DNA of 64,000 nucleotides, taken from NCBI GenBank assembly GCA_001769275.1, contig MEOQ01000001.1, positions 4,604 to 68,603 on the forward strand. Reading direction: 5' to 3'. A program made the position numbers and the translations under genes. Below are positions 19,984 through 51,361 of the stretch, piece after piece. How positions within the stretch are numbered: position 1 is the first letter of the stretch; each line of letters opens with the position of its first letter. Source of the DNA: Bacteroidetes bacterium GWF2_43_63. GTDB taxonomy: Bacteria; Bacteroidota; Bacteroidia; Bacteroidales; DTU049. The notes beneath the pieces are model-generated. The model searched no databases. It had not been told where the DNA came from and saw nothing but the letters and a program-made list of their open reading frames with translations.

Positions 19984-22900
19984 TTATTGTCGCACAATTC
20001 TAACGACTTCATTTCCAATTCTAAGGAAATACACACCTGCCGGATACACGCCCAGATCGAATTCTTTCTTCTGCGTCGATCCGTTTAGGTTATTGTATAG
20101 TCCTCTGAACAGCAACTTCCCTTTAGCATCGGTGAGTTCAACAATCGCATCAGCATTTGCTCCGCTTTGGATTATATAAATCATTCCATCTGCCGGATTC
20201 GGGAAAACGCTGAATACAATATTTCCATTTTCATCAATCGCATCGCAAGGCTCAATGGTAATGCTTATTGTATCAGCTGACTCACATCCGTCATTCACGG
20301 TAACACTCACGTCAAATGTGCTAACACCATGTCCGGTTGAATCAACGGTAAAAGTTTGTCCTGTTGCAGCTCCTTCGCTCCAGAGATAGGTGGCGCCTGT
20401 GTTTCCGGCATCAAGAACGATAAATGCATCAGCACAAATGGTGGTGTCGTTTCCTAACCAGACAACTGGAGTTGGATTCACCGTCAATTCAAGAATGTAT
20501 ACACTATCGCATCCTGTCTGGGTTTGCAGACTGTCGTAATAGATTCCTGCAGTTGAGTAATTTGCGGAATGCCAGGTATAGACTTCGCCTTCACACATTG
20601 TGTGTGTTTCAGTAAATTCATAAGTTGAGTTAACTGTGAGTTCTAAAACAAACACACTGTCGCAACCAGTCTGGGTTTGCAAACTATCGTAATAAGTTCC
20701 AGCAACAGAATAATCGTTTCCACGCCATGTGTATATATCTCCCTGGCACACTTCGACTTCGCTCAGTGTGACATAGGCGGGATTTACGGTGAGATTCAGT
20801 ACAAATATACTGTCGCAGCCAGTCTGGGTTTGCAGACTATCGTAATAAGTTCCAGCTACAGAATAATCGTTTCCGCGCCATGAGTAAATTTCTCCATTAC
20901 ATACTTCGACTTCGCTCAGTGTGACATATGAAGGATTGACGGTGAGATTCAGTGTATAAACGCTGTCGCAACCGTTCACTGTAGAGTATGATGCATTGTA
21001 AATTCCACCGGCTGTGTAGGTGTTCCCATGCCATGTGTAACTATCACCATTGCACATTGAATGACTTTCATTGAACGCAAAAGTTGGATTTACGGTCAGA
21101 TTCAGTACAAACACACTGTCGCAGCCAGTCTGGGTTTGCAGACTATCGTAGTAAGTTCCGGCAACAGAATAATCGTTTCCACGCCATGAGTAAACATCTC
21201 CCTGACACACTTCGACTCCGCTCAGTGTGACATAGGCGGGATTTACGGTGAGATTCAGTGTATAAATACTGTCGCAACCACCCGATGAAATGTACGATGC
21301 AGTAAAAGTGCCTGAAGAATTGTACGTGTTTCCATGCCATGTGTATGTTTCTCCGTCGCAAATACTGCTGTTTTCGGTAAATGCAAATCCTGCAACTTCA
21401 GAAAGAGTCAGCTCATAAATGCTGTCGCATCCGTTGATGGTGTTGTAGTATTTGGTATAAACACCGGGTGTTGTGTAAGTGGTTCCATGCCAGATGTACG
21501 CTGATCCCTGACAAATGGAATGACTTTCATTGAAAAGATACGAAGGTGTCACTGAAAGATTCAACGTGTAAATACTGTCGCATCCGTTTACAGTTGTGTA
21601 TGCAGCTGTATAAATGCCTGGCGTTGAATATATGGTCCCATGCCAGATGTAGCTATCTCCCTGGCAAACAGAATGGCTTTCGCTGAAAGCGTATTGTGGA
21701 TTTACAGACAGGTTCAGGGTGTAAACACTATCGCAACCCGTTGAAGAAACATAAGCTGCGGTATAAATTCCCGCAGTATTAAAAGTGTTTCCATGCCAGG
21801 AATAACTTTCGCCAATACAGATGCTGTGATCTTCGGAAAACGTATAGCTGGTAGTTTCTGTGAGGTTCAGGGTATAGGTGCTGTCACATCCGTTTACAGA
21901 AGTGTAGTTTTTTGTATACACACCAGGAGCTGAATAAGTTGTTCCGTGCCATGTATAACTTGATCCCTGACAAATTGCGTGATTTTCGCTGAAAGCATAA
22001 GTTGGACTCACGGTCAGATTAAGCGTATAGATGCTGTCGCAACCGTGAATGGTTGTGTACAGTTTTGTATAAATGCCAGGCAGCGAGTATGTGTTTCCGC
22101 GCCAGGAGATGCTTTGGCCCTGACACATGGTTTGATTTTCATTGAAAGAATAAGTCGGCCAGGTATTCAGATTGAGCGTGTAAGTACTGTCACAACCATG
22201 AATAGTCGAATATGTTCTGGTATAAACGCCAGCTGAAGAGTATGTAGTTCCTTTCCATGTATAGTTGTCTCCTTCGCACATAGTGTGGCTTTCGTTGAAT
22301 GAATATGTTGGATACACTTTCAAATCAAGCGTGTAAACACTGTCGCATCCACCTGCCGAAACATAGCTTGCTGCGTATATTCCCGGGGCGGTATACGTGG
22401 TTCCATGCCACAGATAGGAGCTGCCAACGCACATGTTGTGGATTTCAGAATAAGCATAGCTGGCAATCTCAGTGAGGTTTAGCGTGTAAATACTATCACA
22501 TCCGTGAATGGTCGTGTAGCTTTTTGTGTATACTCCCGGTGATGAATAGGTTGTCCCATGCCAGTTATAGCTCGATCCCTGACAAATTGCTTCATTGTCG
22601 TTGAAATGATAGGTCGGATGAACAACGAGACTCAGCGTATAAGTGCTGTCGCAACCATGAATGGTTGTGTAATGCTTTTGATAGTTGCCAGAGGCCGTAT
22701 AGGTAGTTCCATGCCAGGTGTAGCTTTCGCCGCTACAAATTGCATGATTTTCGTTGAATGAATAAGTGGGGTTCGTAGTCAGGTTCAGAACAAACACGCT
22801 GTCGCAGCCGCTTTGGGATAGCAAACTGTCGTAATAAGTGCCAGCTGTTGAGTACGTATTGCCGCGCCAGAAGAAGCTTTCACCCATACACACTTCGATT

Positions 22901-25900
22901 TCGCTTAGTGTGACATACGAAGGATTGACGGTTAGATTCAGCACAAACACACTGTCGCAGCCGGTTTGTGTAAGCAAACTATCATAGTACGTTCCGGTAG
23001 CAGTGTATGTATCACCGCGCCAGAAGTAGCTTTCACCGTTGCACACTTCGACTCCGCTCAGTGTGACATACGAAGGATTGACTGTTAGATTTAAAACAAA
23101 CACACTGTCACAACCGGATTGCGTAAGCAGACTATCGTAGTATGTTCCGGCAACAGAATAATCGTTTCCACGCCAGGTGTAAGACTCTCCATTGCACACT
23201 TCGACTCCGCTCAGTGTGACATAGTTCGGATTGACGGTCAGATTCAATGTGTATGTACTATCGCATCCGGTAGAGGAAACATATGTTGCAGTATATGTGC
23301 CAGCTGAATTATAGGTGTTTCCTTGCCAGGTGTATGAATCACCAGAACAGATGCTGTGATTTTCGCTGAATGAATACCCGGCAACTTCCGATAGATTGAG
23401 CGTGTAAATACTGTCGCAACCGTGAATGGTTGAATATGTTTTTGTGTATACGCCAGCCGCTGAATACGTGGTTCCATGCCATGTGTAGGATGAGCCCTGA
23501 CAGATGGAATTACTTTCACTGAAAGCGTACGTTGGATTGACAATAAGATTCAGCATAAATACGCTGTCACAGCCGGATTGAGTGAGCAGGCTATCATAAT
23601 AAGTGCCAGCAACGCTGTATGTATTACCGCGCCAGATGTACGTTTCGCCATTGCACACTTCGACTTCGCTCAATGTAAAATATTTTGGGTTGACTGAAAG
23701 ATTCAGTGTATAAATGCTGTCACAGCCATTTACTGTTGTGTATGCAGCGGTATAAGTGCCGGCTGTTGAATACGTCGTTCCATGCCAGGTATAGCTTTGT
23801 CCTTCACAGATGGAATAATTTTCAACATAGGAAAAGACCGGATTCACACTTAGGTTCAGTATGTATGTGCTGTCGCATCCTGACCCGGATGTGTACACAA
23901 CCGGATACGTTCCTGCAGTCGTATACGTGTTGCCCTGCCAGGTGTATGTCTCGCCATCACATATGCTGTGATTTTCAGTGAATGAATATTCGGCAACTTC
24001 AGTCAGATTAAGCGTGTAAATACTGTCGCACCCATGAATGGTTGTATAGTTTTTCACATAGGTTCCGGCAGCGGAATAAGTGGTCCCTTGCCACGTGTAG
24101 GTCGATCCCTGACAGATTGATTTATTTTCACTGAATGAATAAGTGGGATGAACCGTGAGCGACAATGTGTAGGTGCTGTCGCAGCCATTGCTGGTGGTGT
24201 AGGTTTTTGTATAAGTGCCGCTGGTTGTGTACGAGCTTCCATGCCAGTTGTAAGTACTACCCTGACAGATTTCTACCATGTCAAAAAACCCGTAAGCAGG
24301 ATAAACCGTAAGATTGAGGGTGTATGTACTGTCGCACCCATTCACCGTTGTGTAGTTTCTTGTAAAAAATCCTCCCGTTGTGTAATTGCTTCCATGCCAC
24401 ACATAGCTTTCGCCCTGACACATGCTGTAACTTTCGCTGAATGCATAAACCGGATTTACTGTAAGATTCAGAATAAACACACTGTCGCAGCCCGCCTGCG
24501 TTAGCAGACTGTCATAATATGTTCCTGCAACAGAATAGTTGTCACCATGCCATGAATACACTTCGCCCTGACAGACTTCGATTTCGCTCAATGTGACATA
24601 AGTGGGATTGACTGTCAGATTCAGGGTGTAAGTGCTGTCGCAACCTTTAGATGTCAAATAGTTTTTTGTGTAAACTCCGGTTGCCGAATACGTGGTTCCT
24701 TGCCAGGTATAGCTTTCGCCACTGCAGACTGAATGATTTTCGGCGAATGCGTATTCCGGATTTACTGTCAGATTCAGGGTGTAAGTGCTGTCGCAACCTT
24801 TAATTGAAATATAATTTTTCACATAGGTTCCGGCAACGTTGTACGTTGATCCATGCCAGGTGTAACTGTCTCCCGCGCATATGGAGCGGTTCTCCGCATA
24901 TGAGTAGGATGGATTGACTTTAAGATTGAGTGTATAAACACTGTCGCATCCGCCCGATGACACATAGGACGCTGAATAAATTCCGGCAGAAGTATAAGTG
25001 TTGCCATGCCATAAATAGGAGTTGCCCGAGCAAATGGTGTAGGTTTCAGAAAACGCATAGCTTGGAATCTGCGTCAGATTTAATGTATAAATACTGTCGC
25101 ATCCATGCGAAGAAACATAGGGTTTTGTGTAAACACCGGGAGTGGAATAAGTGGTTCCATGCCAGATGTAGCTTGAGCCCTGACAAACTGCGCGATTTTC
25201 GCTGAACGAATATTCCGGATAAACTGTGAGATTTAGTGTGTAAACACTATCGCATCCGTGAATCGTTGTGTAGGTTTTTGTATAAGTTCCCGGTGATGCA
25301 TAAACGCTTCCCTGCCAATTAATAGTTTCACCCTGACAGATAGCCTGATTTTCGTTGAATGCATAAACAGGATTAACCGCAAGATTCAATGTGAATATGC
25401 TGTCGCACCCATGAATGGTTGTGTACGTTTTTGTATATGTTCCTGCGGAGGAATAGGTTGTTCCATGCCAGGTGAAGCTCTGACCCTGACAAATGGAATA
25501 ATTTTCAACATATGAATACTTAGGAAAAACGGTAAGATTGAGCGTGTAAACACTGTCGCAGCCGCCGGTTGAAATATACGTCTTATTATAAATTCCGGAT
25601 GTTGAATACGTTGTTCCCTGCCAGATGTATGATTCTCCGCTACACATGCTGTGGTTTTCCGAAAACGCATACGTCGGAATGGCCGTAAGATTCAGCGTGT
25701 ACGTACTGTCACAACCATTAATGGTGAGATAGTTTTCCGAATACACGCCCGGTGTTGAATACGTGGTTCCATGCCATGTGTAGGACGATCCCTGACAAAT
25801 AGCTTTGTTTTCGCTGTATGAATAAGTTGCATTTACGGAGAGATTCAACGTATAAATGCTGTCGCAACCGTTGACAGTCGTGTAGCTTTTTGTGTATGTT

Positions 25901-28900
25901 CCGGGTGTGGCATACGTGCTGCCATGCCAGGTGTAAGTTTGTCCCTGACACACTTCGACTTCGCTCAGTGTGACATAGGTCGGATAAACGGTCACATTCA
26001 TTGTAACAACCGGAGCACATTGACCAGCGGTTGGGGTGAATGTATAGGTTGCTGTTCCTGCGCTTGCAGTGCTGATTGCAGCGGGGCTCCATGTTCCGGT
26101 AATTCCGTTGGTTGAAGTTGTCGGTAATGTTGCCGGGATTGCTTCTTTGCAATAGGAGCCAGCCTGAACAAAGGCCGGAGTTGTATTTGCATTTACCGTG
26201 ACGCTCATCGTAACTACAGGAGAACAAAGTCCTGCGGCGGGGGTGAACGTATAAACTGTTGTTCCAGCTGTGGCAGTGTTTATTGCAGACGGGCTCCAGG
26301 AGCCACTTACGCCGTTTGTTGATGTTGCTGGTAATGATGCGGGTGTTGCTCCAACACAATAAGGTCCAGGCTGTGTGAATGTCGGTGTTACGACCGGATT
26401 TACAGTAATCGAAAAAACAGTTGAAAACGCTGCAGGGCAGTTTCCACTAACCACTTCGGCCATGAACAGCCATGTTCCGATGGTTGAAATATCTTCGGAC
26501 CATGTTTCATCGGTATTGACAATATCAGTCCAGGTTGTACCCCCGTCATTGCTTGTTTGCCAGCGGGTAATGGTTCCGGTATAACCACTTAGCATAATTG
26601 CTCCGGTATTGCTGCCCGCACAAATGCTTGTATTAGGACCAGTCAATGTTCCGCCCACCGAAACCAGATCGTTGGTTAGTGTTACTGTATTTGATGTTGG
26701 CGAAGTAAGTGATCCATTTACCGTATAACCTTTGTAAGTCCCGGAGGCGAGTCCTGTAAATGTATGCGTGTCTGTTGCCCCAGTCCAGTTGGCAACTGGC
26801 GTTCCACTTCCGGTCTCCAGATAAAATGTTTGATTTGCCGAAACGGTAGAAGATAGTGTAACTGTTCCGGTTCCACAACCCGATGCTGCAGTGGCTGTAA
26901 CAGTAGCTGGAGTCGGACAGTCCATGGTGTGCCAGCCAAGGTGTGTGGCATCGTCAATGGCGTAGGCAGTCCATTCTGCACCAAAGGTTGGAAAACCTGC
27001 CGAAGGATTTGTGGTGACTCCGCCAAAAACAGTACTGTTGCGCACCAGTGTCATATTAAGCATTGACATGGTTCCTGAAGTCCAGGCAGTACCAGGGTCT
27101 TCGCCAATACGTCCCATGATGTCAACATACGAGGCGGTAGAAATTTTGTACAGTGCCAAAGCGTCATCGCCGTTGTAGAAGGTTGCGGTAGTGATGGTGG
27201 TGTCAGTTGTATAAATGGTTGCCAATGAATTTGAATACACTTTTACAGACCCGTTTACCAGCGTTCCGCTCAGCAGATAGTCGGTTGTTGGAGTTGTAGC
27301 GCCGTTCGGATACAGGCGCAACCGATAATCGGAGAGATTTACATCAACCCCTGTTCCATTATAAATTTCGATGTACTTGTTGCTGCTTGATCCTTCCACA
27401 TATTCAGAGATAATAAGGTCAGTGGCACAACCCGCCCCGCCTGCACCACCGGCTATGGTAGAACAAGTTGCAGTTAGTGCTGCAGGCACTGTTTTATAAT
27501 TTACATTCGAAGCGGAATTGGAATACGGATAAATTTTAAAGTAATAAGTTGTTGATGCTGTCAATCCTGAAAAACTAACGCTCTGAATTCCTGCGCTGAT
27601 ATTCTTAACCAGTGTCGCATCCGATTCCGGTGTTCCGTCAACAGGATCAGTAATAGCAGCCAGACTAATGTTGCTGGCTTTGATCAGATATTTATCCGGA
27701 AGAATTGTTCCGATGGCATCGGTCCATGTTAGTGTAATAGATGCGCTGGTGCTGGTTTCGCACGAAAAAGCTGTTGGATGATTTGTGGGTTCCGGTTTTA
27801 GTACAGTATAACTATAGATGGCCGAAGTAGTTGAATTACCGTCATTATCGGTAGCAATAATTCTGTACGTCACAGTTGTCCCTGCAACCTGCGCTGGAAT
27901 GGAGGTTGAAACAATGTAGTTCGGAGCTCCGTTCAGATTCATATTGATGCTGTTGCCGAAGCTGATTCCATCAGTGCACCATTGAAGTACAGCCGTGGAA
28001 ATACTGCCATCATCGGTGATATCAGCCGTAACCGAAACAGTATTAACCGGGCTCGGGAAAAGAGGAGTCTGAATAATATTGGTAATTACTGGAGCAGTTG
28101 AACAGACCGTTGACGTCCATACCAGACACACATATTCCGGATGATCGATGTACGGATTCCGGTTGTGCTGTGGTGTGTTATAGTAAATAGCATTATTTCG
28201 ATTGACTTCTTTTTGGCTCACCGGATCCTGAATATGCCAGCGCACCAGCATATCGATATACCATTGAAGGTAGTTTCCTCCGGTAGTGGTAATGATGTAT
28301 TGTGAATCGTAGGTGTAAGTATTTCTCCAAACACTCAAATAGTTCATATACCGTGTGGCCAGATAAAGATATGCGCGTGCAAAATCGCCTTTGTATTCAT
28401 TGATGGGTTCAAAAACGGAACCTGTAAAACCAGTCAGAGCGCAGGGTCCAACTTTACTTCCATTTGAAGAAGTGTATGTGGGCGCATTTGTTTCGGCAAC
28501 AATGTAATTGCTTTTTCTGTTGTTGACATACTGATCAGTAGGGGGCAGATGATGGAGATCAGAGTACTGAGGATTTGCTGCATTGTCTAAACCGCCCCAC
28601 CAGGAATTTGGCATCTGGTGCTCACGCGAATAACAATCACCTTCTGCACTTGCAGTGCCGCATTGGTCTGTGTATAACGTGAAAGTATAGGCAGGAGTTC
28701 CGCCTGGAATATCTGAATACATATCCCAGATTACGGTGCCCCCGGTTGTTGTTACATCGGTGTAACTATACGCATCCCACACATCGAAGGCTGTGCTTGT
28801 ATAGGGCAGTTTGACATGACCGCTGGTGATTATGTCGCGCAGATTGCCACGCAAAACATCGCCGGTGCCGGTAGCTGAATCGTAGTATCCGGCAGGAATT

Positions 28901-28959
28901 TGTGCGAATAAAAGTTGGCTGGCAAGTAAAGTAAGAGCTAAAAGTAAAAGTCTTTTCAT
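19984..28959 (-). CDS. giant T9SS-secreted protein: endonuclease I domain, FN3/Ig-like domains, lamin-tail domain, 36 x 51-aa Cys repeats, type A C-terminal sorting domain
   Basis: Signal peptide MKRLLLLALTLLASQLLFAQ. REHQMPNSWWGG and DLHHLPPTDQYVNNRKSNY are endonuclease I motifs. LIISEYVEGSSSNKYIEIYNGTGVDVNLSDYRL is the LTD. The CTD reads VFPNPADGMIYII...TDAKGKLL...GVYFLRI. Confidence 0.9.
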   Translation of the reverse strand: MKRLLLLALTLLASQLLFAQIPAGYYDSATGTGDVLRGNLRDIITSGHVKLPYTSTAFDVWDAYSYTDVTTTGGTVIWDMYSDIPGGTPAYTFTLYTDQCGTASAEGDCYSREHQMPNSWWGGLDNAANPQYSDLHHLPPTDQYVNNRKSNYIVAETNAPTYTSSNGSKVGPCALTGFTGSVFEPINEYKGDFARAYLYLATRYMNYLSVWRNTYTYDSQYIITTTGGNYLQWYIDMLVRWHIQDPVSQKEVNRNNAIYYNTPQHNRNPYIDHPEYVCLVWTSTVCSTAPVITNIIQTPLFPSPVNTVSVTADITDDGSISTAVLQWCTDGISFGNSINMNLNGAPNYIVSTSIPAQVAGTTVTYRIIATDNDGNSTTSAIYSYTVLKPEPTNHPTAFSCETSTSASITLTWTDAIGTILPDKYLIKASNISLAAITDPVDGTPESDATLVKNISAGIQSVSFSGLTASTTYYFKIYPYSNSASNVNYKTVPAALTATCSTIAGGAGGAGCATDLIISEYVEGSSSNKYIEIYNGTGVDVNLSDYRLRLYPNGATTPTTDYLLSGTLVNGSVKVYSNSLATIYTTDTTITTATFYNGDDALALYKISTASYVDIMGRIGEDPGTAWTSGTMSMLNMTLVRNSTVFGGVTTNPSAGFPTFGAEWTAYAIDDATHLGWHTMDCPTPATVTATAASGCGTGTVTLSSTVSANQTFYLETGSGTPVANWTGATDTHTFTGLASGTYKGYTVNGSLTSPTSNTVTLTNDLVSVGGTLTGPNTSICAGSNTGAIMLSGYTGTITRWQTSNDGGTTWTDIVNTDETWSEDISTIGTWLFMAEVVSGNCPAAFSTVFSITVNPVVTPTFTQPGPYCVGATPASLPATSTNGVSGSWSPSAINTATAGTTVYTFTPAAGLCSPVVTMSVTVNANTTPAFVQAGSYCKEAIPATLPTTSTNGITGTWSPAAISTASAGTATYTFTPTAGQCAPVVTMNVTVYPTYVTLSEVEVCQGQTYTWHGSTYATPGTYTKSYTTVNGCDSIYTLNLSVNATYSYSENKAICQGSSYTWHGTTYSTPGVYSENYLTINGCDSTYTLNLTAIPTYAFSENHSMCSGESYIWQGTTYSTSGIYNKTYISTGGCDSVYTLNLTVFPKYSYVENYSICQGQSFTWHGTTYSSAGTYTKTYTTIHGCDSIFTLNLAVNPVYAFNENQAICQGETINWQGSVYASPGTYTKTYTTIHGCDSVYTLNLTVYPEYSFSENRAVCQGSSYIWHGTTYSTPGVYTKPYVSSHGCDSIYTLNLTQIPSYAFSETYTICSGNSYLWHGNTYTSAGIYSASYVSSGGCDSVYTLNLKVNPSYSYAENRSICAGDSYTWHGSTYNVAGTYVKNYISIKGCDSTYTLNLTVNPEYAFAENHSVCSGESYTWQGTTYSATGVYTKNYLTSKGCDSTYTLNLTVNPTYVTLSEIEVCQGEVYSWHGDNYSVAGTYYDSLLTQAGCDSVFILNLTVNPVYAFSESYSMCQGESYVWHGSNYTTGGFFTRNYTTVNGCDSTYTLNLTVYPAYGFFDMVEICQGSTYNWHGSSYTTSGTYTKTYTTSNGCDSTYTLSLTVHPTYSFSENKSICQGSTYTWQGTTYSAAGTYVKNYTTIHGCDSIYTLNLTEVAEYSFTENHSICDGETYTWQGNTYTTAGTYPVVYTSGSGCDSTYILNLSVNPVFSYVENYSICEGQSYTWHGTTYSTAGTYTAAYTTVNGCDSIYTLNLSVNPKYFTLSEVEVCNGETYIWRGNTYSVAGTYYDSLLTQSGCDSVFMLNLIVNPTYAFSESNSICQGSSYTWHGTTYSAAGVYTKTYSTIHGCDSIYTLNLSEVAGYSFSENHSICSGDSYTWQGNTYNSAGTYTATYVSSTGCDSTYTLNLTVNPNYVTLSGVEVCNGESYTWRGNDYSVAGTYYDSLLTQSGCDSVFVLNLTVNPSYVTLSGVEVCNGESYFWRGDTYTATGTYYDSLLTQTGCDSVFVLNLTVNPSYVTLSEIEVCMGESFFWRGNTYSTAGTYYDSLLSQSGCDSVFVLNLTTNPTYSFNENHAICSGESYTWHGTTYTASGNYQKHYTTIHGCDSTYTLSLVVHPTYHFNDNEAICQGSSYNWHGTTYSSPGVYTKSYTTIHGCDSIYTLNLTEIASYAYSEIHNMCVGSSYLWHGTTYTAPGIYAASYVSAGGCDSVYTLDLKVYPTYSFNESHTMCEGDNYTWKGTTYSSAGVYTRTYSTIHGCDSTYTLNLNTWPTYSFNENQTMCQGQSISWRGNTYSLPGIYTKLYTTIHGCDSIYTLNLTVSPTYAFSENHAICQGSSYTWHGTTYSAPGVYTKNYTSVNGCDSTYTLNLTETTSYTFSEDHSICIGESYSWHGNTFNTAGIYTAAYVSSTGCDSVYTLNLSVNPQYAFSESHSVCQGDSYIWHGTIYSTPGIYTAAYTTVNGCDSIYTLNLSVTPSYLFNESHSICQGSAYIWHGTTYTTPGVYTKYYNTINGCDSIYELTLSEVAGFAFTENSSICDGETYTWHGNTYNSSGTFTASYISSGGCDSIYTLNLTVNPAYVTLSGVEVCQGDVYSWRGNDYSVAGTYYDSLQTQTGCDSVFVLNLTVNPTFAFNESHSMCNGDSYTWHGNTYTAGGIYNASYSTVNGCDSVYTLNLTVNPSYVTLSEVEVCNGEIYSWRGNDYSVAGTYYDSLQTQTGCDSIFVLNLTVNPAYVTLSEVEVCQGDIYTWRGNDYSVAGTYYDSLQTQTGCDSVFVLELTVNSTYEFTETHTMCEGEVYTWHSANYSTAGIYYDSLQTQTGCDSVYILELTVNPTPVVWLGNDTTICADAFIVLDAGNTGATYLWSEGAATGQTFTVDSTGHGVSTFDVSVTVNDGCESADTISITIEPCDAIDENGNIVFSVFPNPADGMIYIIQSGANADAIVELTDAKGKLLFRGLYNNLNGSTQKKEFDLGVYPAGVYFLRIGNEVVRIVRQ
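20470..25977 (-). repeat. 36 tandem copies of a 153-bp (51-aa) coding repeat
   Basis: aa 995-2830. Each copy fits Y..[ST]E...C.G..Y.W.G..Y...G.Y....Y/L....GCDS.Y/F.L.L.V.P, with no length variation. Confidence 0.9.
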
Positions 28960-29241
28960 CTGACATTTTTTTTCGTGAGCAAAGCTTGTAAAGATACGTA
29001 TAGATATATATGGATGTCAAGCATCATTGTTCATTTTTAGACCATTACGCCTGTTTTTTGTTCGAATACGCTGAATATGTATCCGAAAAAGTGTAAAAAA
29101 TTCAGCATTTTGCTTTTTTTTCAGTGTTCATTTGTCGGTTAATTGGCTGGTTGGCAGTGAAAATGAGCTGGTTTGTAGAAATCGGTAGTGAAGACTCATA
29201 ATTATTTCCGAAATTAGCATTGTGAACCATTGATAAACAAT

Positions 29242-35394: not shown

Positions 35395-35404
35395 GTTGCT
35401 TTGT

Positions 35405-45092: not shown

Positions 45093-48000
45093 TTACCGTT
45101 CCACCACAACCCGCTTCAACACATAACCTTCAGCGTTTTCAATTTTCAGCATATACACGCCCGGCGCAACGGAATTCAGATCAAACTGAACTGTTTTCTG
45201 TGCAGAAATTTGTTCTTTTTGAATGATTTGTCCGAGTGCATCGATGAATGAAAGCGTATAATCATCTTCGGCGGGGAAGGTGATGGTGAGCTGGCCGGAG
45301 GTTGGATTGGGGAAGATACTGATGTTGCCGTCGTTTAATGATTCAATGCCTGCGCAATCATCAACCACAATATTGACCGATGCACTGTTTTGGCATCCGT
45401 TGGTGTCAGTATAAGTGTATTCTACTGGCCATGTGCCGATGCCGGCTGCGGCAGGATCGAATATGTTTCCACTCATGCCCTGGCCGCTGAAGGTGCCGCC
45501 TGCAGGATTTGCGATGAGAGAAGCTGAAGGATTGTAGATGCAAAAAACACTGTCAGTAATATTGATTTCTACAACAGGCAATGGTTGTACAATTAAATTC
45601 AGTACATGCACAGAGTCGCATCCATATTGGGTTTGCAAGCTGTCATAATAAATTCCGGAGGTGGAATAGTTGTTACCATGCCATGAAAATACGTCGCCTG
45701 TACAAATGTCTGTGTCGTCTGTGATAACAAAATCAGGATGAACAATCAGGTCAAGAACATACAAGCTGTCACAACCGGTCTGTGCCTGCAGCGAATCATA
45801 AAATATTCCCGAAGTATTATAATTGTTTCCGCGCCAGAAATATGTTCCACCATCGCAGATTTCAGCATATTCAGTGAACTCGTATGCCTGTTTTACATTC
45901 AGATTGAGAATGTAGATGCTGTCGCATCCGTGTGCAGTAAGCAAGCTGTCATAGTAGGTCCCTGAGATATTGAAAGGATTGCCGCGCCAGAAATAATTTT
46001 CGTTGCTGCAGATTTCGGCATTTTCCGAGAATTCAAAAGTTGGGTTTACAATGAGGTGAAGCACGTGTATGCTGTCGCAGCCATATGTGGTGCTCAGGCT
46101 GTCATAGTAAGTGCCGGTACTGGTGTAGGTGTTTCCGTGCCAGAAGTAATTCTCATTGTCACACACTTCGACTTCGCTCAGTATCACATAGGTTGGGTGC
46201 ACGATCAGATTGAGAATGAAAACACTGTCGCATCCGTTTTGTGTAGTCAGACTGTCATAATAAATTCCAGTTGTGTCAAGTGTAAATCCTCGCCACGAGT
46301 AGGTTTCGTCGTCGCATATTTCGACTTCGCTCAGTGTGACATAGGTCGGGTGTACAATTAGATTGAGAATATAAATGCTGTCGCAGCCATTAACCGAATT
46401 CAGATTTTCGTAATAAGTTCCGGCGTTGAAATATGTATTTCCTCTCCACAAGTAGCTTTCGTTATCACAAATCTCGACATTCAATACAAATTCATAAGTT
46501 GGGTGGACTTTCAGGTCGAGTACATAAACGCTGTCGCATCCAAAAGCCGCGTTCAGACTGTCATAATAAATGCCCGTATTTTGATATAAATTTCCGCGCC
46601 AAAGGAAGTTTTCGTTATCACAAATTTCGGCATGCTGAACAAACTCAAACGTTGGGTGAACCAACAGGGCGAGAATATAGACGCTGTCGCATCCATGAAC
46701 TGTTGTGAGACTGTCATAATATACGCCGGTGTTGGATAAAATGTTCCCGCGCCAGATGTAGGTTTCGTTGTCGCAAATATGGACAATTTGAGGAATTTCA
46801 TAGGTCGGATGTACTACGAGATTCAGAACAAAAGTGCTGTCGCATCCGAAAGCTGTGTTTAAATAATCATAGTAGGTTCCTGCGCTGGCGTACGTATTCC
46901 CGCGCCAGGTGTAGCTTTCGTGTTTGCATATTTCAGCATTGTGAATGGTTTCGTAATTTGGATGTACGAGCAGATTCAGAATATAAACACTGTCGCAACC
47001 GTAGATTGTGAGCAGACTATCATAGTATGTGCCGGTATCGTAAAGCGATTTCCCGCGCCAGGTGTAAACATCATTATCGCATATTTCAGCAGATTGCGGA
47101 AATTCAAAAGTCGGATGCACTATGATGTGAAGGATGAAAACGCTGTCACAGCCATGTATTGACGTCAGGCTGTCGCGGTATGTTCCAGCATTATAATATG
47201 TATTGCCGCGCCAGAAATAGCTTTCATTATCGCATATTTCAGCAGATTGCGAATATTCAAAAGTCGGATGCACGATCAGATGCAGCACAAAAACGCTGTC
47301 GCATCCATATATGGTGTTCAGACTGTCGTAGTAAGCTCCTGCGTCAAAGTATGTATTACCGCGCCAGGTGTAGCTTTGATTGTCGCACACTTCGGCTTCA
47401 CTAGGTATGACAAAGGTCGGATGTACGATCAAATGCAGAACAAAAACACTGTCGCATCCATACATTGAATTCAGGCTATCGTAGTATATTCCTGCGTCAA
47501 AGTATGTTTCGCCTCGCCAGGTGTAGCTTTCATTATCGCACACTTCGACTTCGCTCAGTGTGACATAGGTCGGGTGCACAATCAGATTGAGAATAAAAAC
47601 ACTGTCGCATCCATACATTGAATTCAGGCTATCGTAGTATATTCCTGCGTCAAAGTATGTTTCGCCTCGCCAGGTATAGCTTTCGTTATCGCATATTTCG
47701 ACTTCGATCGGTGTGACATAGGTCGGATGCACGATCAGATGCAGCACAAAAATGCTGTCGCATCCATATATGGTGTTCAGACTGTCGTAGTAAGTTCCGG
47801 CGTCAAAGTATGTATTACCGCGCCAGGTGTAGCTTTGATTGTCGCACACTTCGGCTTCGCTCGGTATGATAAAGGTGGGATGTACGATCAAATGCAGAAC
47901 AAAAACGCTGTCGCATCCATATACGGTGTTCAGACTATCGTAGTAAGTTCCGGCGGCAAAGTATGTGTTGCCGCGCCAGGTGTAGCTTTCATTATCGCAC

Positions 48001-51000
48001 ACTTCGACTTCGCTCAGTGTGACATAGGTCGGATGAACAATCAGATTGAGAATAAAAACACTGTCGCATCCATACATTGAATTCAGGCTATCGTAGTAAG
48101 TTCCTGCGTCAAAGTATGTTTCGCCGCGCCAGGTATAGCTTTCATTATCGCAAATTTCGACTTCGATCGGTGTGACATAGGTCGGATGCACGATCAGATT
48201 CAGAACAAAAACGCTGTCGCATCCATATACGGTGTTCAAGTTATCGTAGTAAGTTCCGGCGTCAAAGTATGTATTACCGCGCCAGGTATAGCTTTGATTG
48301 TCGCACACTTCGGCTTCGCTCAAAGTGACATAGGTCGGGTGCTCTATCAGGTGCAGAATATAAACACTGTCGCATCCATAAATCGTGTTTAAACTATCGT
48401 AATATGTTCCGGCATCGAAATAGGTTTTACCGCGCCATGAGAAACTTTCGTTGTCGCACATTTCTGCATAATTATCAAATTCAAATGTTGGGTGAACAAT
48501 GAGATTAAGCACGTAAACGCTATCGCATCCGTACTGGGTGATCAGGCTGTCATAATAGGTTCCGGCAAGTGTGTAGTTGTCTCCTCTCCAAAACAAGCTT
48601 TCATTGTCGCATGTCTCCTTGTTTTCGGTAATCTCATAGTGAGGTCTTACATGTAGAATTGCAGTGTTGGAAATTACGACTGATTCAGGACAGGTTGATG
48701 TAATGATGCACCTGTATAAATAATTATTCATACTCGCCGGGACCGCATTCAAATGTAGAGAATCTGTCTGCGAACCAGAGTACATAGAATTGTCCGAGAT
48801 GTTTACAAAGCCTGCGCCTGGGTTGACCTGCCATTGGTAGGTGAGCCAGTTGCCGGTTGCGAAAGATTTGAAAAAAGTGTTTTCGCCGAGACAAACAGAT
48901 GCGTCACTGACGGGTCGTACAAACTCCGGAGCATTACAAACTTCAACGAGTTTTGTATAATAAGGATTTTTACCCTTATCGGCATCAAAATCAAATTTCT
49001 TCACCAGCAGTCCGGTGGCCGGATCAAATTCAAATAAAACACCAAGGTTGTTGACACCACCGTCTTTTGTCACGCCATACAGTTTGCCTCCCGAGGATTC
49101 CAATAATGTTCCTTCCGGATCATTTCCGTTGGCAATACCTGTAAAATCTATTTTTTTTGTAAAAACGGAATTAACCGGATCAAATTCAAAGAGTACGCCC
49201 ATGTTGCTCACACCGCCATTGGAAGTGAGCCCGTAAAGCATTCCATTCGATGCCAGCGTCAGCGATCCGTAGGGATTGGCTCCGTTGGTGACTCCTGCAA
49301 AATCAACTTTATTGGTGAAGGTGTTTGATGTGATATCGTATTCAAAAAGAACGCCCATGTCGTTTAATCCTCCGCTGTAGGTCATGGCATAGAGTTTTCC
49401 GTTGCCGGCCATAACAAAATCGCCATATGGATTGGCCCCGGTTGCCAGGCCGTCAAACGAATGTTTTAAAGAAAAGAGGTCGCTGTTATAATTGTATTGA
49501 AAGATAATACCAAGGTCATTAATCCCGCCAAAGGATGTCATGCCGTATAAGTCTCCGGTGCTGGTTTCTATAAGTGAGCCGTAAGGATAACTCCCGGTCA
49601 GGGCGCTGTCGAGATGCCTTTTGACAATGTTGATTCCTGTCGCGGGATCAAATTCATACAAGGTCCCTTTGTCGTTGATGCCGCCACTATAGGTCATTCC
49701 ATACAGTTTCCCATTCGCTGCTTCGGACATGTTGCCGACCGGAAAACCTCCGTTTGTTGCATTGTCGTAGTCGAGCACTTTTGTGAAGACATTTCCGATT
49801 GGATTAATATTGAAAATTACGCCGAATTCGTTTTGTCCTCCATAGGTCGTATTTCCGTAAAGCATATTATCAGCGGTGTAGATAAGCGATCCGTACGGAT
49901 ACGCGCCGTTTACGGTTATTGCAAAATCAATTTTTTTTGCAAACGAATTTGTTGTGCAATCATACTCAAACAAGACGCCGTTGTTGTTGGGACCCCCGGA
50001 GTTTGTTACGCCGTATTGTTTCCCATCGGAAGCGGTCATTAATGATCCAAAGGGGGCGCTTCCCATTGTCAATCCGTCGAAATCCTGTTTGCGGGTCAGG
50101 ATGCCGGATGTGGGGTCAAAATCAAAGATTACACCTTTGTCGTTGGTTCCTCCACCCGAAGTCATACCCGTTAAAACCCCACATGCATTAATCAGTGTTC
50201 CATATGGGGACCTGCCGTTTAATGGTCCGTCAAAATCAATTTTCTTTGTAAAAACAGAAGTGACCGGATTGTATTCAAACAACACTCCGAGGTTGAGGGT
50301 GCCTCCCTGGGCAGTCATTCCGTACAACATTCCATTTGAATACTCTGTGAGCGATCCATATGGTCCCCGACCGTTGGCTGCACCTGTGAAATCAATTTTT
50401 TTGAGAACTGTTCCGGTGCTGATATTATATTCAAAAAGAACACCCAGACTGGATGTTCCTCCGCGGAAAGTCATTCCATAAAGCAACCCATTTGAAGCTT
50501 GCATCAGTGTTCCGTAAGGATTTTTGCCAGTGACTGTACCGTCAAAATCCCATTTTTTTATCAGAATACCCGTAGCCGGATTGAATTCAAACAACACCCC
50601 GGAGTTGCTTGCACCACCACCTGAGGTCAGACCGTAAAGCAAGCCATTCGAAGCCAACATCAGAGATCCAAATGGATTACGCCCGGTTGTTGCCGAAACC
50701 AAGTCAATTTTTTTGACAAAAACGCTGTTTATGGGATCGTATTCGAATAGCACGCCCGCGTTGCTTGCTCCACCACTCTGTGTCATACCGTATAATTTTC
50801 CGTTTGGAGCCAGGGTGAGTGATCCGTAGGGATTTCTACCATCCGTGGTGCCGTTGAATATCACCATTGGGGTAAATATCCCGGTGGTATTATCGAATTC
50901 GTACAACACCCCAGCGTCGTTTGGGCCACCGCCGAAAGTCATTCCATAGAGCTTCCCGTTTGTGGCTTCACAGAGCTGACTGTATAATGGATTTCTTCCA

Positions 51001-51176
51001 GGCAGGTTTATAAAGTTGTATGCAACCTGAAGCGAATCACCGTAACCATTTGTTTTGAAAACAACACCTCCTCCATTGCCACCGGCATAGGTCATGCCCC
51101 AGAAAGAACTCTGATATTGAGCGTGGCTGTTGAAAACAAGAAAGAGGAACGCCAGTGCAGTATATAATTTTCTCAT
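45093..51176 (-). CDS. giant T9SS cargo: GloVer-like repeat region, Ig-like domain, 20 x 51-aa Cys repeats, Ig-like domain, type A CTD
   Basis: Signal MRKLYTALAFLFLVFNSHAQ from the ATG at 51176. About 15 repeats of NG.LYGMT..GG.N.GVLFE......F.....F.G...G..P.GSL resemble TIGR03803 GloVer. The CTD reads FPNPTSGQLTITF...IDALGQII...GVYMLKI. Confidence 0.9.
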   Translation of the reverse strand: MRKLYTALAFLFLVFNSHAQYQSSFWGMTYAGGNGGGVVFKTNGYGDSLQVAYNFINLPGRNPLYSQLCEATNGKLYGMTFGGGPNDAGVLYEFDNTTGIFTPMVIFNGTTDGRNPYGSLTLAPNGKLYGMTQSGGASNAGVLFEYDPINSVFVKKIDLVSATTGRNPFGSLMLASNGLLYGLTSGGGASNSGVLFEFNPATGILIKKWDFDGTVTGKNPYGTLMQASNGLLYGMTFRGGTSSLGVLFEYNISTGTVLKKIDFTGAANGRGPYGSLTEYSNGMLYGMTAQGGTLNLGVLFEYNPVTSVFTKKIDFDGPLNGRSPYGTLINACGVLTGMTSGGGTNDKGVIFDFDPTSGILTRKQDFDGLTMGSAPFGSLMTASDGKQYGVTNSGGPNNNGVLFEYDCTTNSFAKKIDFAITVNGAYPYGSLIYTADNMLYGNTTYGGQNEFGVIFNINPIGNVFTKVLDYDNATNGGFPVGNMSEAANGKLYGMTYSGGINDKGTLYEFDPATGINIVKRHLDSALTGSYPYGSLIETSTGDLYGMTSFGGINDLGIIFQYNYNSDLFSLKHSFDGLATGANPYGDFVMAGNGKLYAMTYSGGLNDMGVLFEYDITSNTFTNKVDFAGVTNGANPYGSLTLASNGMLYGLTSNGGVSNMGVLFEFDPVNSVFTKKIDFTGIANGNDPEGTLLESSGGKLYGVTKDGGVNNLGVLFEFDPATGLLVKKFDFDADKGKNPYYTKLVEVCNAPEFVRPVSDASVCLGENTFFKSFATGNWLTYQWQVNPGAGFVNISDNSMYSGSQTDSLHLNAVPASMNNYLYRCIITSTCPESVVISNTAILHVRPHYEITENKETCDNESLFWRGDNYTLAGTYYDSLITQYGCDSVYVLNLIVHPTFEFDNYAEMCDNESFSWRGKTYFDAGTYYDSLNTIYGCDSVYILHLIEHPTYVTLSEAEVCDNQSYTWRGNTYFDAGTYYDNLNTVYGCDSVFVLNLIVHPTYVTPIEVEICDNESYTWRGETYFDAGTYYDSLNSMYGCDSVFILNLIVHPTYVTLSEVEVCDNESYTWRGNTYFAAGTYYDSLNTVYGCDSVFVLHLIVHPTFIIPSEAEVCDNQSYTWRGNTYFDAGTYYDSLNTIYGCDSIFVLHLIVHPTYVTPIEVEICDNESYTWRGETYFDAGIYYDSLNSMYGCDSVFILNLIVHPTYVTLSEVEVCDNESYTWRGETYFDAGIYYDSLNSMYGCDSVFVLHLIVHPTFVIPSEAEVCDNQSYTWRGNTYFDAGAYYDSLNTIYGCDSVFVLHLIVHPTFEYSQSAEICDNESYFWRGNTYYNAGTYRDSLTSIHGCDSVFILHIIVHPTFEFPQSAEICDNDVYTWRGKSLYDTGTYYDSLLTIYGCDSVYILNLLVHPNYETIHNAEICKHESYTWRGNTYASAGTYYDYLNTAFGCDSTFVLNLVVHPTYEIPQIVHICDNETYIWRGNILSNTGVYYDSLTTVHGCDSVYILALLVHPTFEFVQHAEICDNENFLWRGNLYQNTGIYYDSLNAAFGCDSVYVLDLKVHPTYEFVLNVEICDNESYLWRGNTYFNAGTYYENLNSVNGCDSIYILNLIVHPTYVTLSEVEICDDETYSWRGFTLDTTGIYYDSLTTQNGCDSVFILNLIVHPTYVILSEVEVCDNENYFWHGNTYTSTGTYYDSLSTTYGCDSIHVLHLIVNPTFEFSENAEICSNENYFWRGNPFNISGTYYDSLLTAHGCDSIYILNLNVKQAYEFTEYAEICDGGTYFWRGNNYNTSGIFYDSLQAQTGCDSLYVLDLIVHPDFVITDDTDICTGDVFSWHGNNYSTSGIYYDSLQTQYGCDSVHVLNLIVQPLPVVEINITDSVFCIYNPSASLIANPAGGTFSGQGMSGNIFDPAAAGIGTWPVEYTYTDTNGCQNSASVNIVVDDCAGIESLNDGNISIFPNPTSGQLTITFPAEDDYTLSFIDALGQIIQKEQISAQKTVQFDLNSVAPGVYMLKIENAEGYVLKRVVVER
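45579..48638 (-). repeat. 20 tandem copies of the 153-bp coding repeat, including a duplicated 459-bp three-copy block
   Basis: Copies 4-6 (47721-48179) are nearly identical to copies 7-9 (47262-47720). Confidence 0.9.
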
Positions 51177-51361
51177 AGGCCTGGATTTTGTAATAAACCT
51201 GTTAATGTTTAATAAAAAACAAGCATCTAATATAATAGAAATTCTATTAAAATGCAAGTTTTCCCGATATTATAGTACCAGCACTGCTCTCAATAGGTCA
51301 AACTAAGCAAATATGTTTGCAAAGCTTTATTAATAATATAGGGTTCGACTTTTTGAAAAAT

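What the first reader, a model, noticed from the sequence alone, without database searches (positions are those of the whole stretch)
20470..25977. A 51-aa two-cysteine, Tyr/Trp-rich repeat I cannot name: 36 in-register tandem copies here and 31 more in two neighbouring giant genes
- **Seen, array:** aa 995-2830 of the 2991-aa ORF are 36 head-to-tail units of exactly 51 aa (153 bp) with no length variation.
- **Seen, consensus:** Y-x-[FT]-x-E-x3-[IV]-C-x-G-x2-Y-x-W-[HRQ]-G-x2-Y-x3-G-x-Y-x4-[YL]-x4-G-C-D-S-x-[YF]-x-L-x-L-x-V-x-P. Each unit has two invariant Cys, at positions 10 and 38.
- **Seen, other copies:** the same unit occurs 20 times in 45093..51176 (45579-48638). It occurs 11 times in three blocks of 51410..60400.
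- **Seen, subtypes:** subtype 1 is YVTLSEVEVC..RGN.Y..AGTYYDSL..Q.GCDSVFVL. Subtype 2 is Y.FSEN..ICQGS.YTWHGTTYS..G.YTK.YTT..GCDS.YTL. They are interleaved in this gene, and subtype 1 dominates the 45-51 kb gene. This suggests units move between genes.
- **Inference:** each unit is a small disulfide-stapled beta module. The array would be either a long stalk or a multivalent binding surface displayed through the T9SS.

That it is unnamed is only my recollection, not a database result.
Basis: partly seen in the sequence, partly recalled or inferred. Interest (0 to 1): 0.75.

Follow-up and report, generated by a model that had tools for sequence, protein, structure and literature searches.

The report
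Unnamed 51-residue disulfide-laddered stalk repeat
Three giant secreted surface proteins of an uncultured Bacteroidales bacterium carry 67 copies of a very common but unnamed 51-residue mini-domain, and its two cysteines appear to bond neighbouring copies to each other rather than pairing within a copy, which would make a long, stiff, probably sugar-coated stalk.

Summary
ORF 19984..28959(-) holds 36 gapless 51-aa units (nt 20470-25977). The same unit occurs 20 times in 45093..51257(-) and 11 times in 51410..60400(-).

No model in Pfam-A (2025) or NCBIfam 20.0 matches the unit, and no PDB chain matches it by sequence. It is nevertheless very common: 25,353 representative proteins match, with up to 83 copies each. 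Nearly all named ones are Bacteroidota, and most carry T9SS C-terminal domains.

AlphaFold models each unit as five strands (pLDDT 91). The only significant structural relatives are the Ig-like stem repeats of GhpA, the T9SS "grappling hook" protein of Aureispira.

- Across 6,456 units, loss of Cys10 in unit n goes with loss of Cys38 in unit n+1 (355 joint losses against 25 single; odds ratio about 11,000).
- The same pair is by far the strongest DCA coupling.
- Strands β1 and β5 are parallel, so the two Cys of one unit sit at opposite ends.

The most conserved motif, D39-S40-[IVT]41, equals the Bacteroidota O-glycosylation sequon.

Best reading: a minimal half-Ig module that forms a junction-stapled, probably glycosylated, length-variable stalk holding a nuclease and other heads away from the cell. 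It is a new variant of a known kind.

The parts
19984..28959 (-). Gene 1 (P1, 2991 aa). In order: signal peptide, Endonuclease I, fn3, LTD, Ig-like domains, 36 x 51-aa array, terminal Ig-like domain, T9SS type A CTD.
   Evidence: ORF list and translation. Pfam and NCBIfam hits. Identical protein on 10 contigs.
28135..28866 (-). Endonuclease_1 domain (aa 32-275), the distal 'head'.
   Evidence: PF04231, E 7.9e-62.
27136..27423 (-). Lamin-tail domain (aa 513-608). ExeM-like region.
   Evidence: PF00932, E 5e-11. NF033680 partial hit over aa 512-681.
25978..26394 (-). Two ~70-aa two-Cys Ig-like domains just upstream of the array (aa 856-994).
   Evidence: Read from the translation. Aligned in A4. 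Their F-G half aligns to the unit's beta4-beta5 half: hhalign probability 75%, E 2.4e-5.
20470..25977 (-). The array: 36 in-register 51-aa units (aa 995-2830). 27 are subtype 2 and 9 are subtype 1.
20245..20469 (-). Terminal Ig-like domain with N-Cys 2842, C-Cys 2892 and a 'cap' Cys 2905.
   Evidence: Cys positions. The cap is what a ladder of N-Cys(n) to C-Cys(n+1) bonds needs at its end.
20005..20208 (-). T9SS type A C-terminal sorting domain (aa 2918-2985).
   Evidence: PF18962, E 4e-9. TIGR04183, E 1e-6.
45093..51176 (-). Gene 2 (P2). The likely start is the ATG at 51176. In order: signal peptide, 14 GloVer repeats, Ig domain, 20 x 51-aa array, terminal Ig-like domain with cap Cys, type A CTD.
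45579..48638 (-). 20 in-register units (aa 874-1893), all subtype 1. Units 3-9 are a recent 3-unit amplification (90-95% nt identity).
51410..60400 (-). Gene 3 (P3, 2996 aa). Contains Asp-rich CglD-like repeats, 13 MopE motifs, three blocks of the 51-aa unit interleaved with GloVer repeats, Ig-like domains and a type A CTD.
56225..56836 (-). P3 block 1: 4 units (aa 1189-1392). The last unit lacks C10 but keeps C38.
53915..54871 (-). P3 block 2: 6 units (aa 1844-2162). The last unit lacks C10 but keeps C38.
52301..52453 (-). P3 block 3: a single unit (aa 2650-2700), followed by three ~72-aa Ig-like domains and a cap Cys.

Best explanation
The 51-aa unit is a stripped-down, half-Ig-like beta module. 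A three-stranded sheet (beta1 parallel to beta5, beta4 antiparallel to beta5) is covered on one face by a short beta2-beta3 hairpin that carries the conserved aromatics.

Units stack head to tail into a rod. Each junction is covalently stapled by a disulfide between Cys10 of unit n, at the distal end of beta1, and Cys38 of unit n+1, just before beta5. The array is therefore a continuous disulfide ladder, not beads that are each closed by their own disulfide.

Right after Cys38 lies the family's most conserved motif, D39-S40-[I/V/T]41. This is the Bacteroidota general O-glycosylation sequon, so each unit probably carries one glycan. Subtype 1 units have a second sequon at D30-S31-L32.

The proteins are exported by Sec, then oxidised and glycosylated in the periplasm. 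The T9SS secretes them and tethers them to the surface through the type A CTD pathway. The array then acts as a rigid, protease-resistant spacer. At roughly 3 nm per unit, 36 units would give on the order of 100 nm. It holds the N-terminal heads away from the cell: an Endonuclease I plus LTD nuclease in gene 1, and GloVer and MopE modules in genes 2 and 3. Stalk length changes by in-register gain or loss of whole units.

Shown here: the repeat, its abundance, the lack of any annotation, the strand topology from covariation, the Cys coupling, the presence of the sequon, and the head-array-CTD architecture.

Inferred: that the disulfides and glycans actually form, rigidity, length, surface tethering, and the spacer role.
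For: Fold. The AlphaFold2 model of 3 units has pLDDT 91.4, with five strands per unit. Foldseek against the PDB gives only two strong hits, both to Ig-like stem or neck fragments of the T9SS substrate GhpA: 9flp_A (E 1e-6) and 9flw_A (E 2e-5). The GhpA stem is described as a rigid rod with disulfides between nearby Ig-like domains and O-glycans on every domain (bioRxiv 10.1101/2024.01.29.577165).

Inter-unit disulfide.
- Across 6,456 units from 270 proteins, the table of N-Cys(n) against C-Cys(n+1) is [[355,15],[10,4796]], odds ratio about 11,000.
- The two Cys of the same unit are anti-correlated (odds ratio 0.07). C38(n) against C10(n+1) gives only 1.85.
- Joint losses occur in 56 proteins, with many different replacement residues.
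- In DCA, 10a-38b scores 10.9 against 4.2 for the next pair.
- The parallel register 4-43, 6-45, 8-47 puts C10 and C38 of one unit at opposite ends.
- Last units of arrays lack the N-Cys in 29.8% of cases against 7.8% for internal units. First units lack the C-Cys in 16.4% against 8.9%.
- In this window, the last units of both multi-unit P3 blocks lack C10 and keep C38. A cap Cys follows the final Ig-like domain in all three proteins.

Sequon. D-[ST]-[AILVMT] sits at positions 39-41 in 89.7% of 6,369 units. The motif definition is from PMC8550257. The P1 array has 45 sequons in 1,836 aa, against 5 in the other 1,155 aa.

Stalk role.
- Three different heads share the same array and CTD in one window.
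- T9SS CTDs are on at least 59 of the 120 best hits. By C-terminal sequence pattern, about 115 of the 135 untruncated giant representatives also end in one; 8 of 8 divergent tails tested match TIGR04183.
- An ortholog at 74% identity differs by exactly 153 aa, which is 3 units.
- The conserved aromatics couple to L44 and L46, as core residues do.
Against: - No coordinates were available, so the S-S distance could not be measured in the model.
- Covariation shows co-dependence, not chemistry.
- Many co-loss events may descend from a few amplified 3-unit super-repeats, so the events are not all independent.
- The source organism is probably an anaerobe, and disulfide formation there is assumed.
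- D39-S40 could be conserved for structural reasons alone.
- pTM is only 0.58, so the model does not itself show a rigid rod.
- The start of each array has no clearly assigned partner for the first C38.
- No experiment exists on any member of the family.
Confidence: 0.6

Rival explanations
1. Each 51-aa unit is an autonomous module closed by its own C10-C38 disulfide, and the array is beads on a string.
For: Every unit in gene 1 has exactly two Cys, which is the simplest bookkeeping. The AlphaFold model shows discrete repeating strand sets.
Against: - Within a unit the two Cys are anti-correlated (odds ratio 0.07), whereas C10(n) and C38(n+1) are lost together (odds ratio about 11,000).
- DCA shows no 10-38 intra-unit coupling among its top pairs.
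- The parallel beta1/beta5 register puts the two Cys about 11-12 strand residues apart.
- The asymmetry at array ends and the cap Cys would have no explanation.
Confidence: 0.04
2. The array is mainly a multivalent binding surface, for example an adhesin or lectin for polysaccharide, cell surfaces or metal, and not a passive spacer.
For: - Content of Tyr, Thr, Ser and Asn is high: Y 11.4%, T 15%, S 12.6%.
- Many copies would give avidity.
- Two sequence subtypes are kept within one gene.
- Neighbouring modules such as GloVer and MopE have unknown ligands.
Against: - The conserved aromatics behave as core residues in DCA: 17-44, 22-46, 22-44.
- Exposed positions are variable and polar.
- The array always lies between a distinct head and the anchor.
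- Copy number differs between orthologs with no other change.
- Probable glycans would mask the surface.
Confidence: 0.18
3. The rods are not single chains. Several protomers associate side by side through the exposed sheet edges into a multi-chain fibre, like the GhpA heptamer. The Cys might even link chains.
For: The closest structures are GhpA stem fragments, which form a C7 bundle. A three-stranded sheet has free edge strands and one uncovered face.
Against: - The sequence-local coupling of unit n with unit n+1 fits an in-chain bond.
- GhpA uses a type B CTD with PorP/PorE partners, but these three genes have type A CTDs and no adjacent PorP.
- There is no sequence homology to GhpA.
- Nothing here tests oligomeric state.
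Confidence: 0.15

Closest known systems
GhpA 'grappling hook' stem of Aureispira (PDB 9flp, 9flw; bioRxiv 10.1101/2024.01.29.577165) and, by the authors' analogy, SprB
   Same: A giant T9SS substrate in Bacteroidota. A long run of small beta-sandwich-like tandem repeats forms a straight stalk that carries a distal functional head. It has disulfides between neighbouring repeats and O-glycans on every repeat. It is the best structural match to the model (E 1e-6 and 2e-5; TM 0.40-0.50).
   Different: - No detectable sequence similarity: profile searches of PDB sequences do not hit GhpA.
- The unit here is 51 aa with 5 strands, smaller than a full Ig-like domain.
- The CTD here is type A, with no PorP/PorE partner genes adjacent to these three genes.
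- Heptamerisation is unknown here.
- The Pfam SprB repeat (PF13573) does not match.
Bacteroidota two-Cys Ig-like domains that flank the array (related to the Ig_7 / CHU_C-associated class)
   Same: They have the same N-Cys ... G-C-x-x-x-x-[LIV]-x-[LIV]-x-V layout. hhalign aligns the unit's beta4-loop-beta5 half to their F-G half (probability 75%, E 2.4e-5). They appear to continue the same Cys ladder.
   Different: They are 70-75 aa long. The 51-aa unit lacks about 20-25 residues in the middle, where a short hairpin stands in place of a second sheet. Pfam Ig_7 does not score on the unit; the best single-unit E-value is 0.035.
Periscope proteins and Ca2+-stiffened RTX-adhesin extender repeats (PMC9704523, PMC7493085)
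   Same: A stalk built from tandem repeats, whose number varies in whole units and which projects a functional tip. The junctions between domains are rigidified.
   Different: - Those are Gram-positive wall-anchored proteins or T1SS proteins.
- Their rigidity comes from Ca2+ or from interface packing, not from a disulfide at each junction.
- The repeats here are mostly diverged (55-75% nt), not near-identical, except for units 3-9 of gene 2.
GloVer repeat (TIGR03803), present in genes 2 and 3
   Same: It co-occurs in the same proteins and has a similar period of about 50 aa.
   Different: It is a different sequence family at different coordinates (P2 N-terminal region). It does not hit the 36-copy array of gene 1 at all.

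Membership tests
Any curated protein family (Pfam-A 2025, NCBIfam 20.0) | Score above the curated cut-off on the repeat region. | tested here: not met
   No model hits aa 995-2830 of P1. Of 56 diverse units scanned singly, none gives anything below E 0.003, and no family is hit by more than one unit. The precomputed list for P1, which in this collection carries later Pfam model versions than the local copy, has no repeat family either. PF26689 'FIDD', seen on some homologs, is only a faint hit. Other InterPro member databases were not searched.
GhpA/SprB-type T9SS stalk repeats | Tandem small beta domains with a GhpA-like fold. | tested here: met
   Model pLDDT 91.4. Foldseek 9flp_A E 1e-6 and 9flw_A E 2e-5, TMq 0.40-0.50.
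GhpA/SprB-type T9SS stalk repeats | Sequence homology to GhpA repeats or to the Pfam SprB repeat (PF13573). | tested here: not met
   Profile searches of all PDB sequences at E up to 10 do not return GhpA. PF13573 is absent from P1-P3.
GhpA/SprB-type T9SS stalk repeats | Disulfides between neighbouring repeats. | tested here: met
   Met by covariation only. C10(n)/C38(n+1) co-loss has odds ratio about 11,000, and this pair is the top DCA coupling. It has not been shown chemically.
GhpA/SprB-type T9SS stalk repeats | Type B CTD with an adjacent PorP/SprF (and PorE) anchor. | tested here: not met
   P1-P3 have type A CTDs (PF18962, TIGR04183). The PorP/SprF gene of the window (34375-35394) accompanies a different type B cargo (35405-39595). 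Elsewhere the repeat does occur with type B CTDs: 13 of the 120 best hits carry PF13585, and 29 of 150 giant representatives have type-B-like tails by sequence pattern.
GhpA/SprB-type T9SS stalk repeats | Homo-heptameric bundle. | not testable with these tools
   No multimer prediction or experiment was available.
T9SS type A cargo | N-terminal Sec signal peptide plus a C-terminal Por_Secre_tail domain. | tested here: met
   Signal-like N-termini can be read in the translations. PF18962 and TIGR04183 score above cut-off in all three proteins.
Bacteroidota general O-glycoproteins | The sequon D-(S/T)-(A/I/L/V/M/T) in a periplasm-exposed protein. | tested here: met
   Present at positions 39-41 in 36 of 36 units of P1 and 20 of 20 units of P2, and in 89.7% of 6,369 family units. 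The motif is as given in PMC8550257.
Bacteroidota general O-glycoproteins | A glycan actually attached. | not testable with these tools
   This needs glycoproteomics.
Periscope proteins | Near-identical DNA repeats, with copy number that varies between strains. | tested here: inconclusive
   An ortholog differs by exactly 3 units, and units 3-9 of P2 are 90-95% identical at the nucleotide level. Most units, however, are only 55-75% identical. No strain-level comparison was made.

The most novel reading that the evidence does not exclude
A phylum-wide module family that has not been described (at least 25,000 representative proteins) and is not a domain in the usual sense. Each 51-aa half-Ig unit would be completed and locked by its neighbour through a junction disulfide, with a glycan next to each staple. 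The result would be a single-chain, covalently laddered, glycosylated nanorod, whose length the cell tunes in steps of about 3 nm by in-register unit indels. This would be a distinct solution to building 100-nm surface stalks, alongside Ca2+-stiffened RTX extenders and isopeptide-locked Gram-positive pili.
Probability: 0.45. Interest if true: 0.7.

Novelty: new variant of a known kind. Interest (0 to 1): 0.55.

Why it matters
Tens of thousands of giant Bacteroidota surface proteins are annotated as "hypothetical" largely because this module has no model. A family definition would explain most of their length.

The junction-disulfide ladder plus a per-unit glycosylation sequon gives a concrete, testable design rule for how T9SS cargo reach about 100 nm from the cell. 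It extends what cryo-EM showed for GhpA to a much larger family unrelated in sequence. It also raises the question of how such rods are oxidised, glycosylated and threaded through the T9SS translocon.

For this organism, it predicts a surface nuclease held on a long stalk. The module could also serve as a compact (51 aa), length-programmable rigid spacer for protein engineering.

Tried and rejected
- A word-indexed homolog search with the 51-column profile returned only 6 short proteins. A 306-aa query was needed instead.
The single genome scan was then used to place the organism.
Covariation was used in its place.
- PF26689, which recurs in the precomputed lists of some homologs, turned out to be a faint 'FIDD' hit and not a family for this repeat.
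- Literature searches for a name (GCDS, T9SS, repeat; inter-domain disulfide, stalk, adhesin) found no description of this unit.
- GloVer (TIGR03803) was considered as the identity of the repeat and rejected. It lies elsewhere in P2 and P3 and is absent from P1.
- Recent transfer of units between genes was rejected. Identity between units of P1 and P2 is at most 76% at the nucleotide level, and only short weaker matches link the P3 units to the other two genes.
- An attempt to trace a cultured carrier through P0137 led only to another metagenome assembly.

Full report
**1. Observation**

The window has an intact ORF at 19984..28959 on the minus strand, encoding 2991 aa. When aa 995-2830 are cut every 51 residues, the result is 36 units that align without a single gap. 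Tandem Repeats Finder finds the 153-nt period, with 306- and 459-nt higher orders.

An HMM of the 36 units finds 20 more in ORF 45093..51257(-), at aa 874-1893. It finds 11 in ORF 51410..60400(-), in three blocks. A six-frame scan finds nothing else in the window.

Positions C10, G12, W17, G26, G37, C38, D39, S40, L44 and L46 are present in all 36 units of gene 1. The only error is a one-residue slip in the written consensus, which should read Y28-x3-[YL]32. The two subtypes and their distribution are as described. The identical protein is called on 10 contigs, so it is not an assembly artefact.

**2. Context**

The contig comes from an uncultured Bacteroidales lineage. A neighbouring S46 peptidase is 93-94% identical to those of Bacteroidales/Bacteroidaceae MAGs.

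- Gene 1 runs signal peptide, Endonuclease I, fn3, LTD, Ig-like domains, the array, one Ig-like domain and a T9SS type A CTD.
- Gene 2 has 14 GloVer repeats as its head.
- Gene 3 has Asp-rich CglD-like repeats, 13 MopE motifs and GloVer repeats. Both genes end in type A CTDs.

The same array therefore sits between three different heads and the same kind of anchor.

**3. Is it named?**

No Pfam-A (2025) or NCBIfam 20.0 model touches the array. Fifty-six diverse units scanned one at a time give only scattered noise. The precomputed Pfam list for P1 has no repeat family either. A recurring PF26689 on some homologs is only a faint 'FIDD' hit. Profile searches of all PDB sequences return nothing, including GhpA.

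Sources call carrier proteins 'hypothetical', 'endonuclease', 'PKD domain-containing', 'gliding motility-associated' or 'T9SS type A sorting domain-containing'. Literature searches found no description of the unit. Other InterPro member databases could not be queried.

**4. How common is it?**

The profile matches 25,353 of 1.84 billion representative proteins at E <= 1e-3, and 6,206 at E <= 1e-30. A single protein holds up to 83 copies (a 5,020-aa Paludibacteraceae protein).

In 270 retrieved proteins I extracted 6,456 units. The spacing between consecutive units is 51 aa in 3,250 of 6,186 cases and 52 aa in 981. Named carriers are Bacteroidota, from Saprospiraceae, Chitinophagales, Flavobacteriales, Bacteroidales and Paludibacteraceae.

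T9SS CTDs are near-universal on complete proteins.
- Among the 120 best hits, 46 carry PF18962 and 13 carry PF13585.
- The C-terminal 95 residues of 150 giant representatives were sorted by sequence pattern. 40 look like clear type A, 46 like divergent type A, and 29 like type B. 15 are truncated inside a repeat, and 20 did not fit a pattern.
- 8 of 8 divergent tails tested hit TIGR04183 as their best match, at E 2e-9 to 2e-3.

**5. Fold**

AlphaFold2 was run on units 2-4 with a 63-row alignment. It gives pLDDT 91.4 and pTM 0.58, with five strands per unit: beta1 2-10, beta2 15-17, beta3 20-22, beta4 26-32 and beta5 40-49.

Foldseek against the PDB gives two strong hits, both cryo-EM fragments of GhpA: 9flp_A (E 1e-6) and 9flw_A (E 2e-5). 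GhpA is the T9SS-secreted grappling-hook protein of Aureispira. One further hit just passes E 1e-3 (a Bacteroides ovatus surface glycan-binding protein, 6e57_D, E 9e-4, TMq 0.19). Everything below that is a generic Ig, cadherin or Rib rod at E > 1e-3.

The GhpA paper describes 52 Ig-like repeats that form a straight stem. It reports disulfides between nearby Ig-like domains and probable O-glycans on every domain.

hhalign aligns the unit's beta4-loop-beta5 half to the F-G half of the ~72-aa two-Cys Ig-like domains that flank the arrays (probability 75%). I read the unit as an Ig-like domain reduced to its A'-G-F sheet plus a small hairpin. This is an inference.

**6. The cysteines**

*Co-loss.* Presence of the N-Cys in unit n was tabulated against presence of the C-Cys in unit n+1. 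The table is [[355,15],[10,4796]], with odds ratio about 11,000. Within a unit the two Cys are anti-correlated (odds ratio 0.07). C38(n) against C10(n+1) gives only 1.85. Only the pairing C10(n)-C38(n+1) leaves no orphan cysteine. One example is the 3-unit super-repeats of P0128, where one unit lacks C10 and the next lacks C38. Joint losses occur in 56 representative proteins and involve many different replacement residues.

*Direct-coupling analysis.* Mean-field DCA on 3,028 two-unit windows (Meff 2,476) ranks 10a-38b first, at 10.9 against 4.2 for the next pair. It also recovers a consistent topology:
- beta1 is parallel to beta5 (pairs 4-43, 6-45, 8-47);
- beta4 is antiparallel to beta5 (32-40, 31-41, 29-43, 27-45);
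- beta2 and beta3 form a hairpin (16-21, 17-22);
- the core pairs are 17-44 and 22-46.

With beta1 parallel to beta5, C10 sits at the far end of the unit and C38 at the near end. That is about 11-12 strand residues apart, so they cannot pair with each other. C10(n) and C38(n+1), in contrast, meet at the junction.

*Array ends.* Last units of arrays lack the N-Cys in 29.8% of cases against 7.8% for internal units. First units lack the C-Cys in 16.4% against 8.9%.

*In this window.* The last units of both multi-unit P3 blocks have lost C10 but keep C38. In all three proteins the final Ig-like domain is followed, 13 residues after its C-Cys, by an extra 'cap' Cys. The three Cys in each case are P1 2842/2892/2905, P2 1906/1955/1968 and P3 2856/2905/2918. 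A ladder needs such a cap, and an intra-domain scheme would leave it unpaired.

*Caveats.* This is covariation, not chemistry. The events are not all independent.

**7. The DS motif**

D39 and S40 are each 96% conserved. That is more than the cysteines (87-88%), and they persist when C38 is lost.

D-[ST]-[AILVMT] is the three-residue O-glycosylation motif of Bacteroidota (PMC8550257). It occurs at positions 39-41 in 89.7% of 6,369 units. A second sequon at positions 30-32 (YDSL) marks subtype 1 and about 39% of family units. The P1 array has 45 sequons in 1,836 aa, against 5 in the remaining 1,155 aa.

I infer one or two glycans per unit, next to the junction staple. A purely structural role for the DS pair is not excluded.

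**8. Function**

The evidence favours a spacer or stalk over a binding surface.
- The architecture is head, array, anchor, and the heads are diverse.
- The conserved aromatics are buried.
- The exposed face is polar and variable.
- A 74%-identical ortholog, annotated 'endonuclease', differs by exactly 153 aa, which is 3 units.
- Gene 2 shows a recent 3-unit amplification at 90-95% nucleotide identity.

Strands of about 10 residues imply roughly 3 nm per unit, so about 100 nm for 36 units. This is an estimate from geometry, not a measurement. Gene 1 would then be a surface nuclease on a long stalk.

Rival readings are an adhesive multivalent surface and a GhpA-like multi-chain bundle. Both remain possible and are listed with tests.

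**9. Exchange between genes**

Subtype 1 units of gene 1 are closer to the units of gene 2 (up to 75% nt) than to subtype 2 units of their own gene. No segment, however, exceeds 76% identity between P1 and P2. Only the CTDs of P2 and P3 are recently related, at 87% over 220 nt. Shared ancestry of subtypes is supported. Ongoing shuffling between genes is not.

**10. Verdict**

The feature is real and very abundant, and no library I could search names it. In kind it belongs with the tandem-repeat stalks of surface proteins, and its nearest solved relative is the GhpA stem.

What is new:
- the compact 51-aa half-Ig unit;
- the evidence that its disulfides staple junctions rather than close domains;
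- the sequon at its most conserved motif.

Novelty: new variant of a known kind. Interest: moderate to high, 0.55.

Noticed in passing
window 45102-45317 versus 51416-51610 (minus strand): The T9SS CTDs of genes 2 and 3 are 87% identical at the nucleotide level over 220 nt, which is the only recent similarity between the genes. The P3 copy lacks 7 residues that P2 has ('DALGQII'-type segment: ...LSFIDALGQIIQKEQ... against ...LSFIQKEQ...). This could impair its sorting signal.
   Followed up: partly
locus of P0128 and 55 other representative proteins: Some carriers, Paludibacteraceae-like giants among them, have a 3-unit super-repeat in which one junction in three has lost both partner cysteines (C10 of one unit and C38 of the next). 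This implies a regular pattern of stapled and unstapled junctions, perhaps built-in hinges.
   Followed up: partly
window 20470-25977 and 45579-48638: Subtype 1 units (YYDSL) carry a second O-glycosylation sequon at D30-S31-L32, and subtype 2 units (YTKTY) do not. The two subtypes may therefore differ in glycan density rather than in fold.
   Followed up: partly
BFVD entry A0A8D9FS04: A 1,423-aa 'Putative signaling protein [uncultured marine phage]' contains the same repeat (35% identity over 162 columns, Foldseek E 1e-15). Either a phage carries the module, or a Bacteroidota contig was mislabelled as viral.
   Followed up: no
window 34375-39595 (minus strand): A separate T9SS type B cargo of 1396 aa carries GBD_T9SS_assoc, Ig_7 and CHU_C domains. 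Its own PorP/SprF gene lies immediately downstream. The window therefore holds both CTD classes, and the 51-aa repeat genes use type A.
   Followed up: partly
window 29230-31028 (plus strand): A His_kinase (PF06580) and LytTR response-regulator pair lies next to gene 1 and is transcribed divergently from it. It is a possible regulator of the stalked nuclease.
   Followed up: no
window 51410-60400, aa 1-1180 of P3: The N-terminal 1,180 aa contain long Asp-rich CglD-like repeats, which resemble calcium-binding repeats, and 13 MopE 'putative metal-binding' motifs rich in Cys. Blocks of the 51-aa unit then alternate with GloVer blocks, which is an unusually mosaic giant protein.
   Followed up: no
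window 6344-7573 (minus strand) and 9064-9138: There is a tyrosine integrase with an Arm-DNA-binding domain, typical of Bacteroidota mobile elements. Nearby is a short 27-bp tandem repeat (2.6 copies). Neither has an evident link to the repeat genes.
   Followed up: no
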